Assembly: GCA_038211705.1 (NCBI GenBank) | Contig: JBBQVJ010000003.1 | Coordinates: 1-42,111, forward strand | Reading direction: 5' to 3' | DNA from: Candidatus Limnocylindrales bacterium | Lineage (GTDB): Bacteria; Chloroflexota; Limnocylindria; Limnocylindrales; CSP1-4 | Length of the DNA stretch: 42,111 nt | Shown here: piece after piece, positions 37,971 to 40,595 of the stretch | Layout: each line of letters starts with the position of its first letter | Position numbering within the stretch: position 1 is the stretch's first letter | The notes under the pieces: generated by a model | Databases searched by the model: none | Told to the model about the DNA's origin: nothing | Seen by the model: the letters and a program-made list of their open reading frames with translations, nothing else | Position numbers and translations under genes: made by a program

Positions 37971-40595
37971 CTACTCGTGATGCGTCTGTACGACGGCCGT
38001 TCCGCCGCCATGGCCATGCCCGTTGCCGTGGCCATGGCCGTTGCCGGGCACGCCGGTCACGGTCGGCGGCAGCATCGGCAGCATCGGCAGCATCCGTGTC
38101 GTGTCGATGAGGCGGCCCTCGGCGGCGGCTCGGGACGCCCAATCGCGCTCGCGCCGGATGTAGGTGACCTCGGTCTCGCGATCGATCGCGGCGATCGCCA
38201 TCAGGTCGATCATCGGCTCGTCGCGGCTGGTGTGCGAGAGCTCGATGTCGGCGCCGTCGCGGAGCGCGTCGTAGGGGCAGGCATCGACGCAGATGCCGCA
38301 CAGGATGCAGCGGCTCTCGTCGACCTCGTACTTCTGGAGGACGCGCGGCTTGGGCATCAGCGCGCCGGTCGGACAGGTCTCGGCGCAGCGACCGCAGGAC
38401 ACGCAGGGCGTGTCGTTGAGGATCATATCGAGTGGCGTCGTGACCAGCGTATCGAAGCCGATCCGCATGAAGTCGTAGCAGGCGGCGCCGACGACCTCCG
38501 CGCAGACCTGGGCGCACCGCCCACAGTCGATGCAGCGTGACGGCTCGCGGAGGATGAAGGCATGCGAGTCGTCGCGGATGTAGTCGTGGTTGACGCCGGT
38601 GAACCGGTTCTCGGTGACGCTCCGGAAGCCCGCGCCCTGGTGGTTTCCCATCTCGAGGGTCGGCAGCGTCGTCCCGTATTCGATGCCCAGGCGACGCAGG
38701 TCGCAGAAGCCGATCGCCTCGCAGGTGCACTGGAGGCAGCGGGTCGATTCGGCGACCGCGTCCTCGCGGGTATAGGGCAGCTCGTACTCGATGTACGAGT
38801 GGTTGCGCTCCTCGGCCTCGAGCGCCGACATCCGGTAGCGCGGCGTCTTGGCCTCACTGGTGAAGGGCACGATGGACAGGAACTCGGGCTGTGGCTCGGC
38901 CAGCGTCTGGCGGGTCCGGATGCCGGCCAGGTCCATGCCCTTGAGGAAGGCATCGACCGCGTAGGCCGCCCGCCGGCCCTCGGCGATCGCCTGGACCACG
39001 GTCGCGGCGCCGACCCGCACATCGCCCGTCCCGAAGACACCGGGTCGGCCGGTCTCGAAGGTGACCGCGTCGGCCTTGAGCCGGTTCTGCTTGGTCGCCT
39101 CGACGCCATCCGAGCCCGGGCCGATCCAGGTCAGGTCCGGGCCCTGGCCGATGGCCAGCAGGACGCGGTCGCAGGGGATCGTGAATTCCGTGCCGGGCGC
39201 CGGTTCCGGGCGGCGCCGACCCGAGGCATCTGGCGCACCGGGCGCCATCCGGATGAACTCGACGCCGGTGACCTTGCCATTCTTGTCGGTGATGACCCGG
39301 ACCGGACCGGCCTGGAAGATGGCCGTGACGCCTTCCTCGATCGCCTCGTGGACCTCGTTCGCGGCCGGCATGTCCTTCATGTCCCGGCGGTAGACGAGGG
39401 TCACTTCCCTGGCGCCCTGGCGGATCGAGGTCCGCGAGCAGTCCATCGAGGTGAAGCCGCCACCGATGACCACGACCCGCTTGCCGGCATGGTTCGGGTA
39501 GGGCAGACCGAGGGTCGCGGTTCGCAGGTACTCGAGGCCGTCGAGGACTTCCTCGGCATCCTCGCCCGGGATGCCCAGCTTGTTCGTGTCGTAGCAGCCG
39601 ATCGCCACGACCACCGAGTCGAAGCCCTGGTAGGTCAGGTCGTCGAGCGTGAAGTCCGTGCCGAGCCCGGCGTTGCAGACGATCTTGCCGCCCAACCGGG
39701 TCACCGATTCGTACTCGGCCTCGAGGACCTCGACCTTGGGCAGGCGGTACTGCGGGATGCCGTAGCGGAGCATCCCGCCGGGCGACGGGTCGCGCTCGAA
39801 GACGGTCACGTCGTGACCGGCCAGCAGCAGGTAGAAGGCGGCGGCCATCCCGGCCGGCCCCGAACCGATCACGGCGGCCCGACGGCCCGACGGCGCCTGG
39901 CGCTCGTAGGGCAGCGGCGGGTCCTGGCCGTCGTCGAGCATCGCCTTGAGGACCTGGTCGCCGGCGTAGCGGTGGCTGTCGCGGATGGCGATGGCCTCGT
40001 CGACCTCGTCGCGGCGGCAGTGCTCCTCGCACGGCGCCGGGCAGACACGACCCAGCACGGAGGGGAACGGGATCGTGCGCTTGAAGATGCGGGTGCTCTC
40101 ACGCCAGTCGGCCTCGGCGTTGGCCTTGAGGAAGCCCGGGATGTCGATATGGCTCGGGCACTTGTTCTGGCAGGGCGGCAGGCAGTAGGCGTTGTGGTCG
40201 GAGAAGATCAGCTCCAGGTTGGTCCGGCGCAGGCGGCGCAGCTCCTCGGTCTGGGTCTGGACCTTCATCTCCGGCTCGCAGGCGCGCGAGCAGGAGATCG
40301 GCGGGTGCTCCTCGCCCTCGACCTCCACCACGCACATCCGACAGGCGCCAAAGCCCGGCAGCTTGGGCTCGTAGCACAGGGTCGGGATCTCGATCCCGTT
40401 ATCGCGGCAGACCTCGAGGATCGTCTGGCCCTCAAAGCCCTCGACGACGCGGCCGTCGACCTCGATCCGGATGCGCGTCGACGACTGCGGCCGTTGCGGC
40501 GACTGCGTGTCGAGCAGGCGCTCGGCCAGCGATCGCCCGAGCGATTCGGGCTCGATCGCGGGGCGGCTCTCGGGGCGTGTGATCAGGTCAGCCAT
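37971..40595 (-). CDS. Fusion of NuoG-like [2Fe-2S], GltD/SudA-like FAD/NADPH oxidoreductase, [4Fe-4S] ferredoxin motifs and a NuoI-like C-terminus
   Basis: IPTLC..[113 protein letters not shown]. ATG 40595 after AAGG. Confidence 0.9.
   Translation of the reverse strand: [874 protein letters not shown]

What the first reader, a model, noticed from the sequence alone, without database searches (positions are those of the whole stretch)
38190..38540. Chimeric junction: three CxxCxxCxxxC motifs, the last being the second half of NuoI
Seen: [11 protein letters not shown] and [12 protein letters not shown] are followed immediately by [44 protein letters not shown]. Known: NuoI ends with the pattern R..Y.ID..RCI.CG.C.EACP.DAI....FE.....R..L.Y, and bacterial ferredoxin motifs work in pairs. 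Inference: recombination at a shared ferredoxin motif joined a NuoG/HydA-type domain to NuoI. That leaves an odd motif count, which needs re-paired ligation or a partner, and no NuoI N-terminal amphipathic helix.
Basis: partly seen in the sequence, partly recalled or inferred. Interest (0 to 1): 0.75.

Follow-up and report, generated by a model that had tools for sequence, protein, structure and literature searches.

The report
Split NuoI around NAD(P)H input module
In this Chloroflexota bacterium the respiratory complex I gene nuoI is cut in two, and each half is fused to a flanking gene of an inserted three-gene NADH/NADPH-oxidising cassette, which points to an undescribed way of wiring an electron-input module onto complex I.

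Summary
The window holds exactly three CxxCxxCxxxC motifs in all six frames, and all three lie at 38274-38534 in one minus-strand gene, X (37971-40595, 874 aa).

X resembles StnC/NfnA of Bfu-type transhydrogenases: a NuoG-type [2Fe-2S] domain, a GltD-type FAD/NADPH domain, and a HydA/NuoG-type dicluster domain (motifs 1 and 2). Where those proteins carry a formate-dehydrogenase-like domain, X carries the second half of NuoI (motif 3).

The first half of NuoI has the N-terminal helix and one motif. It is fused to a NuoE-like protein two genes upstream, with a NuoF-like gene between. The operon reads nuoA-B-C-D-H-[I(N)::E']-F-[X::I(C)]-J-K-L-M-N.

- No intact NuoI was found in 41 related genomes.
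- The fused C-terminus occurs in 116 of 121 sampled genomes of the class (Limnocylindria).
- It also occurs in 22 of 178 other sampled Chloroflexota.

This is therefore an old, conserved split gene, not a recent chimera or a misassembly.

The inferred mechanism is that the two halves reassemble into the N6a/N6b ferredoxin. That would pass electrons from the FAD/NADPH site, and probably the FMN/NADH site, to N2 and quinone.

My literature searches found no description of this arrangement. Verdict: new variant of a known kind, interest about 0.7.

The parts
41933..42111 (-). 3' end (last 58 codons plus stop) of the gene for NuoI N-terminal half fused to a NuoE-like domain ('IE'). The window end cuts off the rest.
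   Evidence: The translation ends ...YYSHLRFEP...TAQA*. Window 41831-42111 aligns to own-genome contig C41 1-281 at 94.3% identity. C41 carries the whole gene (L007:103-786, minus strand). Its residues 9-73 match the N-half of NuoI/TYKY chains and residues 115-187 match NuoE/StnA/NfnC/HydC chains.
40606..41928 (-). NuoF-like FMN/NADH subunit ('F', 440 aa), closest to the B subunits of Bfu-type enzymes but lacking their N- and C-terminal cluster domains.
   Evidence: Pfam Complex1_51K (130.4 bits) and NADH_4Fe-4S (68.7 bits). Best PDB matches are 9bov_B (E 2.8e-104, chain residues 100-526 of 584) and NfnB 9n5u_B (117-537 of 602). Thermus Nqo1 scores only E 1.1e-70.
37971..40595 (-). Gene X (874 aa): NuoG-N [2Fe-2S], GltD-type FAD/NADPH domain, dicluster ferredoxin domain, NuoI C-terminal half, and a tail.
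40248..40478 (-). [2Fe-2S] domain of NuoG/HydA type.
   Evidence: Pfam Fer2_4, 72.4 bits. Four Cys are invariant in 30 homologues: C74, C85, C88, C102 in 874-aa numbering.
38937..40184 (-). GltD/NfnB-like domain: two [4Fe-4S] sites plus FAD and NAD(P)H Rossmann folds.
   Evidence: Pfam Fer4_20 (64.4 bits) and Pyr_redox_2 (109.8 bits). It aligns with the GltD part of 9bov_A and StnC 8oh5_C. The GxGxxG, GGG and YRR residues are invariant.
38703..38738 (-). CxxCxCx5C cluster site between the GltD domain and the ferredoxin domain. It is probably the remainder of the N5-type cluster.
   Evidence: All four Cys are invariant. It is conserved in 9bov_A. Thermus Nqo3 residues 117-290 align to X 643-823.
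38358..38555 (-). HydA/NuoG-type 2x[4Fe-4S] ferredoxin-like domain holding motif 1 (38502-38534) and motif 2 (38370-38405).
   Evidence: Pfam Fer4_Nqo3 covers profile positions 4-66 of 67 at 22.2 bits, below its cut-off of 27. The NCBIfam [FeFe]-hydrogenase A6 model matches at positions 145-210. Both motifs align to 9bov_A and StnC.
38112..38357 (-). C-terminal half of NuoI, with motif 3 at 38274-38309.
   Evidence: TIGR01971 positions 71-116 match window 38208-38345 at 41.3 bits. The six best NCBIfam hits are all NuoI models. Its coverage complements the N-half in the alignment with three canonical Chloroflexota NuoI proteins.
37971..38111 (-). Variable C-terminal tail, Pro/Leu- then His/Gly-rich, plus the stop codon.
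   Evidence: Translation. Relatives match the query only up to residues 155-189.
37368..37961 (-). nuoJ
   Evidence: Pfam Oxidored_q3, 113.4 bits.
37054..37359 (-). nuoK
   Evidence: Pfam Oxidored_q2, 84.9 bits.
35084..37057 (-). nuoL
   Evidence: Pfam Proton_antipo_M and Proton_antipo_N.
33432..35081 (-). nuoM
   Evidence: Pfam Proton_antipo_M. GTG start at 35081.
31918..33435 (-). nuoN
   Evidence: Pfam Proton_antipo_M.

Best explanation
The finding is the 3' part of a conserved complex I gene in a Limnocylindria (Chloroflexota) genome. In this lineage nuoI, which encodes the 2x[4Fe-4S] subunit carrying clusters N6a and N6b, is split.

Shown:
- The N-terminal half has the amphipathic N-terminus and the first CxxCxxCxxxCP motif. 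It is fused to the front of a NuoE-like protein.
- The C-terminal half has the second motif and the C-terminal strand. It is fused to the end of X.
- X is a StnC/NfnA-like protein made of a NuoG-type [2Fe-2S] domain, a GltD FAD/NADPH domain and a HydA-type dicluster domain.
- A NuoF-like FMN subunit is encoded between the two.
- The gene order is nuoA-B-C-D-H-[I(N)::E']-F-[X::I(C)]-J-K-L-M-N.
- No intact nuoI was found elsewhere in the related genomes searched.

Inferred:
- Motifs 1 and 2 of X pair in cis, as they do in StnC and HydA. Motif 3 pairs in trans with the lone motif of the upstream protein and rebuilds NuoI. Each cluster of this fold needs three Cys from one motif and the fourth from the other, so neither half can work alone.
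- The rebuilt NuoI docks on NuoB, NuoD and NuoH. It ties the input module to the Q-module by two covalent links.
- Electrons enter at the GltD FAD from NADPH, and probably also at the FMN from NADH. They then run through X's clusters to N6a, N6b, N2 on NuoB, and quinone.
- The parts that Bfu enzymes need for bifurcation are missing: the [2Fe-2S] of the E-like subunit and the extra cluster domains of the B subunit. The enzyme should therefore be a non-bifurcating NAD(P)H:quinone oxidoreductase.
For: 1. Complementary halves. TIGR01971 (NuoI, 121 positions) matches own-genome C41:565-753 at positions 1-62 (50.3 bits) and window 38208-38345 at positions 71-116 (41.3 bits). For each half scanned alone, the best NCBIfam hits are NuoI models: the top 10 for the N-half and the top 6 for the C-half. 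The N-half matches NuoI/TYKY chains of solved complex I, for example 7ar7_I at E 3.9e-10 and 2fug_9 at E 8.1e-8. An alignment with three canonical Chloroflexota NuoI proteins shows end-to-end complementary coverage.
2. No spare NuoI. 0 of 41 genomes (own, 24 same-genus, 16 of a sister family; 15 of them at least 90% complete) have a NuoI match over the cut-off. The N-half is found in 40 of 41, the C-half in 40 of 41, and both in 39 of 41. Where both halves lie on one contig they are about 4 kb apart, as in G024 and G025.
3. One contiguous operon. G024 carries the order MT28-A-B-C-D-H-IE-F-X-J-K-L-M-N on a single contig, and G025 carries the same order as far as nuoL, the last gene examined there. 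The own genome has A, B, C, D, H and IE on contig C41 and IE(3')-F-X-J-K-L-M-N in the window. NuoB keeps the N2 cysteine motifs.
4. Conservation.
- The fused C-terminus is found at E<=1e-79 in 40 of 41 relatives.
- It is found at E<=1e-15 in 116 of 121 genomes and 34 of 34 genera of the class. Five of the 116 are unpublished genomes: G102, G126, G131, G139 and G145. Without them the count is 111 of 116.
- Outside the class, matches at E<=1.3e-29 that span the junction occur in 22 of 178 sampled Chloroflexota genomes.
- 71 of 71 X proteins have exactly 3 motifs, and 68 of 68 IE proteins have exactly 1.
- The linker residues at both junctions are invariant in 30 sequences that span these lineages.
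5. Complementary gene sets elsewhere.
- In G055 (same class), nuoB-nuoD-IE-F-X lie on one contig and nuoA-C-H-J-K-L-M-N on another. The second cluster has no B, D or I.
- In three genomes outside the class that also have a canonical operon with an intact NuoI (134.8-144.3 bits), the IE-F-X trio stands apart from it. In the one examined (G271) a nuoB-like gene precedes the trio.
6. Origin of the module. X aligns to 9bov_A residues 4-699 of 1178 (E 1.7e-160), StnC 8oh5_C residues 2-701 of 1172 (E 1.3e-140) and NfnA 9n5u_A (E 1.5e-135). F is closest to their B subunits and the E' part to their small subunits. In StnC motifs 1 and 2 need no third motif, and Stn and Nfn each have an unused cluster branch (passages of PMC10482914, and PMC12018979).
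7. Predicted complex. X residues 660-830, IE residues 1-110 and four 4Fe-4S clusters gave ipSAE 0.39 (runs 0.38, 0.39, 0.40). The best of 3 controls scored 0.00 and the tool's verdict was 'weak support'.
- The mark was reached by 116 of 157 solved complexes and 2 of 215 mismatched pairs.
- At a score of 0.60 or under it was reached by only 18 of those 157 solved complexes, and by both mismatches that passed.
- The runs agree in at least 85% of their contacts, and the partner's pLDDT is at least 60.
- Canonical NuoI is solved as a single chain, so the pass may reflect likeness to known structures.
Against: - Neither half reaches the NuoI family cut-off. The scores are 41.7 and 51.7 bits, summing to 93.4 against 113.05.
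- A phmmer search of the last 143 aa of X against PDB sequences found nothing at E<=0.01.
- Pfam reads motifs 2 and 3 together as a generic dicluster domain (Fer4_7, residues 753-799, 45.8 bits). The 22-residue spacing between them would allow cis pairing.
- The complex prediction is only weak support, and no contacts were given.
- AlphaFold2 models of X and IE are low-confidence exactly in the ferredoxin parts, with pLDDT about 25-45. No structural check of cysteine pairing was possible.
- Use of NADPH and NADH is inferred from conserved motifs only.
- In the NuoF-like subunit of this order, the second Cys of the N3 cluster motif is replaced in 59 of 65 proteins. That casts some doubt on the FMN branch.
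- No expression or biochemical data were examined.
- The own genome is only 66% complete, and contig C41 is 94.3%, not 100%, identical to the window over the 281-base overlap.
Confidence: 0.78

Rival explanations
1. Cis pairing. Motif 3 forms an ordinary clostridial-type 2x[4Fe-4S] domain with motif 2 inside X. The resemblance to NuoI is only ferredoxin-motif similarity, and motif 1 and the lone upstream motif are ligated some other way.
For: Pfam Fer4_7, Fer4_9 and Fer4_10 span motifs 2 and 3 (residues 746-799). The NCBIfam FdxA family matches residues 45-92 of the 189-aa piece at 52.6 bits. The spacing from the last Cys of motif 2 to the first Cys of motif 3 is 22 residues.
Against: Motifs 1 and 2 align as a pair to StnC, 9bov_A, HydA and HoxU, which have no third motif. 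Motif 3 scanned alone scores NuoI at 41.7 bits against FdxA at 26.9 bits. The match also extends into NuoI-specific flanks, profile positions 74-116. Cis pairing would leave two orphan motifs, and it would leave every genome of the class without a NuoI.
Confidence: 0.08
2. Soluble enzyme. IE-F-X is a Stn/Nfn-like soluble NAD(P)H oxidoreductase or transhydrogenase that is only co-encoded with an 11-subunit complex I. The NuoI-like halves would serve as its internal ferredoxin domain, not as a complex I subunit.
For: The closest solved relatives are soluble transhydrogenases. In three genomes outside the class the trio lies away from the membrane-subunit genes examined.
Against: In Limnocylindria the trio sits exactly where nuoI belongs, between nuoH and nuoJ. 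No other NuoI was found in 41 genomes. The N-half keeps the NuoI-specific N-terminus. In G055 nuoB and nuoD travel with the trio, while the membrane cluster lacks B, D and I. The ferredoxin-reducing domains of the Bfu B subunit and the [2Fe-2S] of the small subunit are missing.
Confidence: 0.08
3. One reading: a recent chimeric recombination that left an orphan, possibly non-functional, ferredoxin motif.
For: Odd motif count in X.
Against: The arrangement is conserved in 116 of 121 genomes of the class and in other Chloroflexota families. Junction residues are invariant. All 71 X proteins have intact reading frames. A matching partner half is always nearby.
Confidence: 0.03
4. Assembly or binning artefact that joined unrelated sequences at a repeated ferredoxin motif.
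For: The source is a fragmented genome of 190 contigs, 66% complete. The operon is broken between the window and contig C41, which overlap at 94.3% identity.
Against: The same fused frame occurs on long contigs of many independent assemblies. Examples are contigs of 959 kb and 819 kb and contigs of 1.8-2.4 Mb among the loci.
Confidence: 0.01

Closest known systems
NuoI / Nqo9 / TYKY (NDUFS8), the 2x[4Fe-4S] subunit of complex I (TIGR01971)
   Same: Both halves match NuoI models and no other family better. Their profile coverage is complementary, 1-62 and 71-116 of 121. They have the N-terminal amphipathic region, two CxxCxxCxxxCP motifs in total, and the gene position between nuoH and nuoJ.
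   Different: The protein is not one polypeptide. The halves sit on two different fusion proteins separated by about 4 kb. Neither half reaches the family cut-off.
StnABC / Nfn-BfuABC electron-bifurcating transhydrogenases (PDB 8oh5, 9n5u; also 9bov, whose depositors name the chains molybdopterin oxidoreductase, NADH dehydrogenase and 24 kDa subunit)
   Same: The subunit trio and gene order are the same: a NuoE-like, a NuoF-like, and a NuoG-N/GltD/F-domain protein. X aligns over about 700 residues at E 1e-135 to 1e-160. All cluster cysteines and the FAD/NADPH motifs of the A/C subunit are kept.
   Different: The formate-dehydrogenase-like C-terminal domain is replaced by the NuoI C-half. The B-like subunit lacks the N-terminal [2Fe-2S]/Zn domain and the C-terminal 2x[4Fe-4S] domain. 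The E-like part lacks its [2Fe-2S] cysteines. The Stn paper reports that deleting that cluster abolishes bifurcation (passage of PMC10482914). The trio is embedded in a nuo operon.
Canonical N-module NuoE-NuoF-NuoG of 14-subunit complex I
   Same: It would play the same role: a flavin site plus a chain of Fe-S clusters feeding NuoI. The fold families are shared.
   Different: It is inserted inside nuoI rather than between nuoD and nuoH. NuoG is matched only over model positions 1-98 of 606 (89.6 bits against a cut-off of 470). It has an extra GltD FAD/NADPH domain, no N1a cluster and no molybdopterin-like domain. F is closer to Bfu B subunits than to NuoF (352.6 bits against 241.9-265.0 bits).
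Mbx-like operons of Thermotoga and proteobacteria, in which a GltD-related flavoprotein takes the place of NuoI (Degli Esposti 2015, PMC4758237; passage read)
   Same: A GltD-type NAD(P)H flavoprotein is attached at the NuoI position of a complex-I-like enzyme.
   Different: As described in that passage, the flavoprotein substitutes for NuoI in a hydrogenase-related Mbx-like complex. Here NuoI is retained but split, and NuoE/F-like subunits are present. I did not examine those operons myself.
NCBIfam NF009454 (PRK12814, 'putative NADPH-dependent glutamate synthase small subunit')
   Same: X residues 63-723 cover model positions 3-631 of 657.
   Different: The score of 548 bits is below the cut-off of 916. 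X carries the extra NuoI half.

Membership tests
NuoI (TIGR01971 / NDUFS8) | Whole-protein score at or above the curated cut-off (113.05 bits) | tested here: not met
   The C-half scores 41.7 bits and the N-half 51.7 bits. 0 of 41 genomes have a match over the cut-off.
NuoI (TIGR01971 / NDUFS8) | Two CxxCxxCxxxCP motifs in one polypeptide | tested here: not met
   There is one motif in IE and one NuoI-type motif (motif 3) in X, on separate gene products.
NuoI (TIGR01971 / NDUFS8) | All parts of the family profile present in the genome, including the N-terminal region and the C-terminal strand | tested here: met
   Profile positions 1-62 plus 71-116 of 121 are matched. Coverage is complementary in alignment A1.
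NuoI (TIGR01971 / NDUFS8) | Gene located between nuoH and nuoJ in a nuo operon | tested here: met
   The order H-IE-F-X-J holds in G024, G025 and the own genome.
NuoI (TIGR01971 / NDUFS8) | Binds clusters N6a and N6b and bridges NuoG to NuoB | not testable with these tools
   Only a weak complex prediction is available (ipSAE 0.39, best control 0.00). The single-chain models are low-confidence in this region.
Stn/Nfn-Bfu large subunit (StnC/NfnA) | N-terminal [2Fe-2S] domain, inserted GltD FAD/NADPH domain and F-domain clusters | tested here: met
   E 1.3e-140 to 8oh5_C and E 1.5e-135 to 9n5u_A. The cysteines and nucleotide motifs are invariant.
Stn/Nfn-Bfu large subunit (StnC/NfnA) | NuoG/FdhF-like C-terminal domain | tested here: not met
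   The alignments stop at residue 699 of 1178 (9bov_A) and 701 of 1172 (8oh5_C). X continues with the NuoI half.
Bfu bifurcating core (HydBC/StnAB/NfnBC) | The B subunit has an N-terminal [2Fe-2S]/Zn domain and a C-terminal 2x[4Fe-4S] ferredoxin domain. The small subunit has a [2Fe-2S] cluster. | tested here: not met
   F aligns only to residues 100-526 of 584 and 117-537 of 602. 56 of 68 IE proteins have no Cys beyond residue 100. The longer forms lack the second Cys pair.
NuoG (TIGR01973) | Full-length match over the cut-off (470.05 bits) | tested here: not met
   89.6 bits, over model positions 1-98 of 606 only.
NuoF (Complex1_51K plus NADH_4Fe-4S) | FMN glycine-rich loop, GEE motif, and four Cys for cluster N3 | tested here: inconclusive
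   The Pfam domains are over their cut-offs. The glycine-rich loop is present and the GEE motif is kept. The second N3 Cys is Thr in the window protein and is not Cys in 59 of 65 homologues.

The most novel reading that the evidence does not exclude
Chloroflexota, with Limnocylindria using it as their only complex I, run a proton-pumping complex I whose N-module was recruited independently of NuoEFG. The source would be a Stn/Nfn-type (Bfu) transhydrogenase cassette inserted into nuoI. The side branch of Fe-S clusters that is unused in Stn and Nfn would become the exit wire into a NuoI rebuilt from two halves. The enzyme would oxidise NADPH at the GltD FAD as well as, or instead of, NADH. That would make it an NADPH-linked respiratory complex I, or a respiration-coupled transhydrogenase. 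In Limnocylindrales the N3 cluster would be remodelled to a three-Cys, possibly [3Fe-4S], site.
Probability: 0.35. Interest if true: 0.85.

Novelty: new variant of a known kind. Interest (0 to 1): 0.72.

Why it matters
NuoI/TYKY is one of the 14 core subunits of complex I, and in every solved structure matched here it is a single chain. Three points follow.

- A natural, clade-wide split of NuoI, with each half welded to a different subunit of the electron-input module, shows that the N6a/N6b ferredoxin can be assembled in trans.
- It also shows that an N-module can be attached to the 11-subunit core by a route different from the canonical NuoEFG insertion. That bears on the long-standing question of how complex I acquired its input modules.
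- The module brings a GltD-type NADPH site. These abundant soil and freshwater bacteria may therefore feed NADPH directly into a proton-pumping complex I, an activity I do not know to have been reported for bacterial complex I (recalled, not searched).

There is a practical consequence as well. The source names given to these genes are 'ferredoxin', 'hypothetical protein', 'FAD-dependent oxidoreductase' and 'formate dehydrogenase major subunit'. Scans that require a full-length NuoI match would not find one in these genomes.

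Tried and rejected
- **phmmer of the last 143 aa of X against PDB sequences:** 0 hits at E<=0.01. The piece is too short and motif-dominated, so I used profile scans instead.
- **AlphaFold2 of full-length X (alignment A3, 30 sequences):** mean pLDDT 60.1. The 2Fe-2S and GltD domains are confident, but residues 562-874 mostly score about 25-40.
- **AlphaFold2 of IE (alignment A2):** mean pLDDT 61.5. The NuoE-like helical domain scores 86-97, but the NuoI half (residues 23-113) is under 50. 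Neither model can say how the cysteines pair, so I ran no fold search on them.
- **Misassembly and recent chimera:** considered and rejected on the conservation data.
- **An intact NuoI hidden elsewhere:** none was found over the cut-off in 41 relatives. One 159-aa frame in G016 matches NuoI positions 6-103 at 46.4 bits, below the cut-off. I did not examine it further.
- **The search of earlier findings:** returned nothing for this place.
- **Literature searches for a prior description:**
  - No listed paper describes a split NuoI or a GltD-bearing N-module in Chloroflexota.
  - The Chloroflexus aurantiacus genome paper (PMC3150298, passages) notes a second, scattered nuo set 'lacking nuoG' with nuoF about 800 genes away. 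This may be the same trio, but I could not check it.
  - I read only listings and passages, no supplements, and subscription journals are not in the library.

Full report
**Observation.** It holds [11 protein letters not shown] (38502-38534), [12 protein letters not shown] (38370-38405) and [12 protein letters not shown] (38274-38309), followed by ...[15 protein letters not shown]. These are the only three CxxCxxCxxxC motifs in any of the six frames of the window. They belong to one ORF, 37971..40661. Its likely start is the ATG at 40595, giving 874 aa, ten bases after the nuoF stop. Met1 is invariant in 30 homologues, and public gene calls are about 865-890 aa.

**What the protein is.** Pfam finds a NuoG/HydA-type [2Fe-2S] domain (Fer2_4), a GltD-type module (Fer4_20 and Pyr_redox_2), and 4Fe-4S motifs. 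It also finds a sub-threshold Fer4_Nqo3 match over motifs 1 and 2. NCBIfam's best model is PRK12814, at 548 bits against a cut-off of 916, covering positions 3-631 of 657. NuoG is matched only over its first 98 positions.

Against PDB sequences, X aligns from residue 64 to 795 with 9bov_A (residues 4-699 of 1178, E 1.7e-160). It also aligns with StnC 8oh5_C (2-701 of 1172, E 1.3e-140) and NfnA 9n5u_A (E 1.5e-135). X is therefore a StnC/NfnA-like protein without their formate-dehydrogenase-like C-terminal domain.

In 30 homologues every cluster cysteine is invariant. So are H134 before the first Cys triplet of the GltD part, the FAD GxGxxG, the GGG and the YRR of the NAD(P)H fold. Reading YRR as a 2'-phosphate (NADPH) signature is recalled knowledge, not a test.

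**The C-terminal piece.** After motif 2, the sequence matches NuoI profile positions 71-116 of 121. A 76-aa piece containing only motif 3 and its flanks has NuoI models as its six best NCBIfam hits. The top score is 41.7 bits, against 26.9 bits for a generic FdxA ferredoxin.

**The missing half.** Searching the window's own assembly with the NuoI model gave no full match. It did find a match to positions 1-62 on contig C41, directly downstream of nuoH. That ORF (L007:103-786, 227 aa) has a NuoI-type N-terminus and one CxxCxxCxxxCP motif, followed by a NuoE-like helical domain.
- Residues 9-73 match NuoI/TYKY chains of solved complex I.
- Residues 115-187 match the small subunits of 9bov, Stn, Nfn and HydABC.

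C41 bases 1-281 overlap window 41831-42111 at 94.3% identity. The window itself contains the last 58 codons of this gene, with its stop at 41933-41935 and the nuoF ATG at 41928.

Aligned with three canonical NuoI proteins from other Chloroflexota, the two halves cover the protein end to end. The break falls in the connection between the two motif regions.

**Operon.** The window carries F, X, nuoJ, K, L, M and N. C41 carries a PF02636-type methyltransferase gene followed by nuoA, B, C, D, H and IE. NuoB keeps the N2 cysteine motifs. In relative G024 the same genes lie on one contig in the order methyltransferase-A-B-C-D-H-IE-F-X-J-K-L-M-N. G025, from a sister family, shows the same order as far as nuoL, the last gene examined there.

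**Not an artefact, and no spare NuoI.**
- The 189-aa C-terminus is found at E<=1e-79, inside frames of about 850-1000 aa, in 40 of 41 genomes. These are the own genome, 23 of 24 same-genus genomes and 16 of 16 of a sister family. G004 has only a weak hit.
- With the NuoI model, 0 of 41 genomes have a match over the cut-off. The N-half is present in 40 (missing in G040), the C-half in 40 (missing in G004), and both in 39.
- Record titles of related contigs name Chloroflexota, Candidatus Limnocylindria or Limnocylindrales. A few carry other labels, probably from binning.
- Of 77 such loci, X was found in 70, IE plus X in 61, and IE, F and X in 57. I counted the remaining 16 as lacking IE or X and did not check why; some of these contigs are only 2.4-6.5 kb.
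- 71 of 71 X proteins have exactly three motifs, and 68 of 68 IE proteins have exactly one.

**Wider distribution.**
- Across the class, 116 of 121 sampled genomes, and 34 of 34 genera, have the fused C-terminus at E<=1e-15. The five genomes without it are 76-91% complete.
- That tally includes five unpublished genomes: G102, G126, G131, G139 and G145. Without them it is 111 of 116. No other claim rests on them.
- In a phylum sample of 201 genomes (all sampled genomes at least 85% complete, plus the 66%-complete own genome), 22 of the 178 outside the class have matches at E<=1.3e-29 that span the junction. They fall in five further families. The unpublished G315 has only a partial weak hit and is not among the 22.
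- In four of these genomes (G271, G247, G292, G170), IE, F and X are adjacent. In G271 a nuoB-like gene precedes them.
- Three of the genomes (G271, G247, G292) also have a canonical operon with an intact NuoI at 134.8-144.3 bits, plus a second nuoD-nuoH pair. In G271 this second set reads nuoA-C-D-H.
- In G055, of the same class, nuoB-nuoD-IE-F-X sits on one contig and nuoA-C-H-J-K-L-M-N on another. Together these make one complete gene set.
- Linker residues at both junctions are invariant across all 30 aligned sequences, including the out-of-class ones. This points to a single old origin.

**How it most likely works.** The shown facts are the gene structure, its conservation, the homologies and the absence of another NuoI. 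The rest is inference.
- *Pairing.* Motifs 1 and 2 pair in cis. They align as a pair to StnC, 9bov_A, HydA and HoxU, which have no third motif. Motif 3 and the IE motif then form N6a and N6b in trans.
- *Complex prediction.* A prediction of X 660-830 with IE 1-110 and four 4Fe-4S clusters gave weak support: ipSAE 0.39, with the best of three controls at 0.00.
  - The mark was reached by 116 of 157 solved complexes and 2 of 215 mismatches.
  - At 0.60 or under it was reached by only 18 of the 157 solved complexes and by both mismatches that passed.
  - The runs agree in at least 85% of contacts, and the partner's pLDDT is at least 60.
  - No contacts were reported. Likeness to solved single-chain NuoI may drive the score.
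- *Electron path.* The Stn and Nfn structure papers describe a linear path from the GltD FAD through the large subunit's clusters to the FMN. They also describe a cluster branch that those enzymes do not use (passages of PMC10482914, and PMC12018979). I infer that in X this branch leads into the rebuilt NuoI.
- *No bifurcation.* The elements those papers tie to bifurcation are absent here. F aligns only to the core of the B subunits. The NuoE-like part has no [2Fe-2S] cysteines: 56 of 68 IE proteins have no Cys beyond residue 100, and the longer forms lack the second Cys pair. The enzyme should therefore pass electrons from NADPH, and probably NADH, to quinone without bifurcation.

**An open point on the FMN branch.**
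- The N3 motif of the window's F reads C-G-K-T-I-P-C, where a canonical NuoF from the same phylum has C-G-K-C-T-P-C.
- At that position, 65 F proteins have T in 38, S in 20, A in 1 and C in 5, with one not matched. Cys occurs only in the lineages outside this order.
- Loss of the middle Cys is the classic signature of [3Fe-4S] sites. This is recalled, not tested.
- F is also less conserved than X. Identity to the window's proteins is 52% against 74% in the sister family, and 44% against 57% in family f4.

**Comparison and novelty.** The closest known systems are NuoI itself, the Stn/Nfn-Bfu transhydrogenases, the canonical NuoEFG module, and Mbx-like operons. In the last of these, a GltD-like flavoprotein is said to replace NuoI (PMC4758237, passage).

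Six full-text searches, and passages of six papers, gave no description of a split NuoI or of this module in Chloroflexota. I read no supplements.

Source names for these proteins are generic. The IE fusion family is small, with 82 representatives at E<=1e-30 among 1.84 billion.

I file this as a new variant of a known kind, with interest 0.72.

Noticed in passing
window 40864-40884 (minus strand), within nuoF-like 40606-41928: The N3 cluster motif reads CGKTIPC, with Thr in place of the second Cys. In 65 homologues the position is T in 38, S in 20, A in 1 and C in 5, and one was not matched. Cys is kept only in lineages outside this order. The distal Cys context also changes, from LCGFG to LCDHE. 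This may mean a three-Cys or [3Fe-4S] site next to the FMN.
   Followed up: partly
window 41933-42111 and L007:103-450 (own-genome contig C41): The NuoE-like part of the IE fusion has no cysteines for the N1a [2Fe-2S] cluster. In this genus it is cut down to the helical N-domain (Pfam 2Fe-2S_thioredx positions 2-63 of 145). The sister family keeps a longer thioredoxin-like domain (2-138 of 145) that lacks the second Cys pair.
   Followed up: partly
window 37974-38111: The C-terminal tail of X has a repeated MLP stretch followed by a Gly/His-rich run ([15 protein letters not shown]). It is poorly conserved: relatives align only up to residues 155-189 of the 189-aa query.
   Followed up: no
window 41831-42111 versus G000 contig C41 1-281: The window's right end overlaps the start of another contig of the same assembly at 94.3% identity, with 16 mismatches and no gaps. 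The operon was probably broken in assembly by strain variation, and C41 may come from a close strain.
   Followed up: partly
L119:2060-3145 (own contig C41), L020:18072-19001, L021:1-1239, L112:7892-9037: A PF02636 (Methyltransf_28) SAM-dependent methyltransferase gene lies directly beside the nuo genes in all four lineages examined. From memory, this is the family of the complex I assembly factor NDUFAF7/MidA.
   Followed up: partly
G271, G247, G292, G055, G049: The NuoD that goes with the split-NuoI set matches Pfam Complex1_49kDa in two pieces (about 1-168 and 197-271). It lacks roughly 28 profile positions that the canonical NuoD of the same genomes has.
   Followed up: no
G181:C38:36562-36879 and 39205-39522: One genome outside the class has two X-type C-termini 2.6 kb apart on one contig, in frames of 806 and 809 aa. 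This suggests a tandem duplicate of X.
   Followed up: no
L113:10419-12050 (G049, family f4): About 1.6 kb lies between X and nuoJ in this family. Other lineages have 9 bases or so at that point. The content was not examined.
   Followed up: no
window 2232-4617: dnaN (2232-3386) and a recF-like gene (3319-4617) lie at the left of the window, so the nuo operon is about 30 kb from the probable replication-origin region.
   Followed up: no
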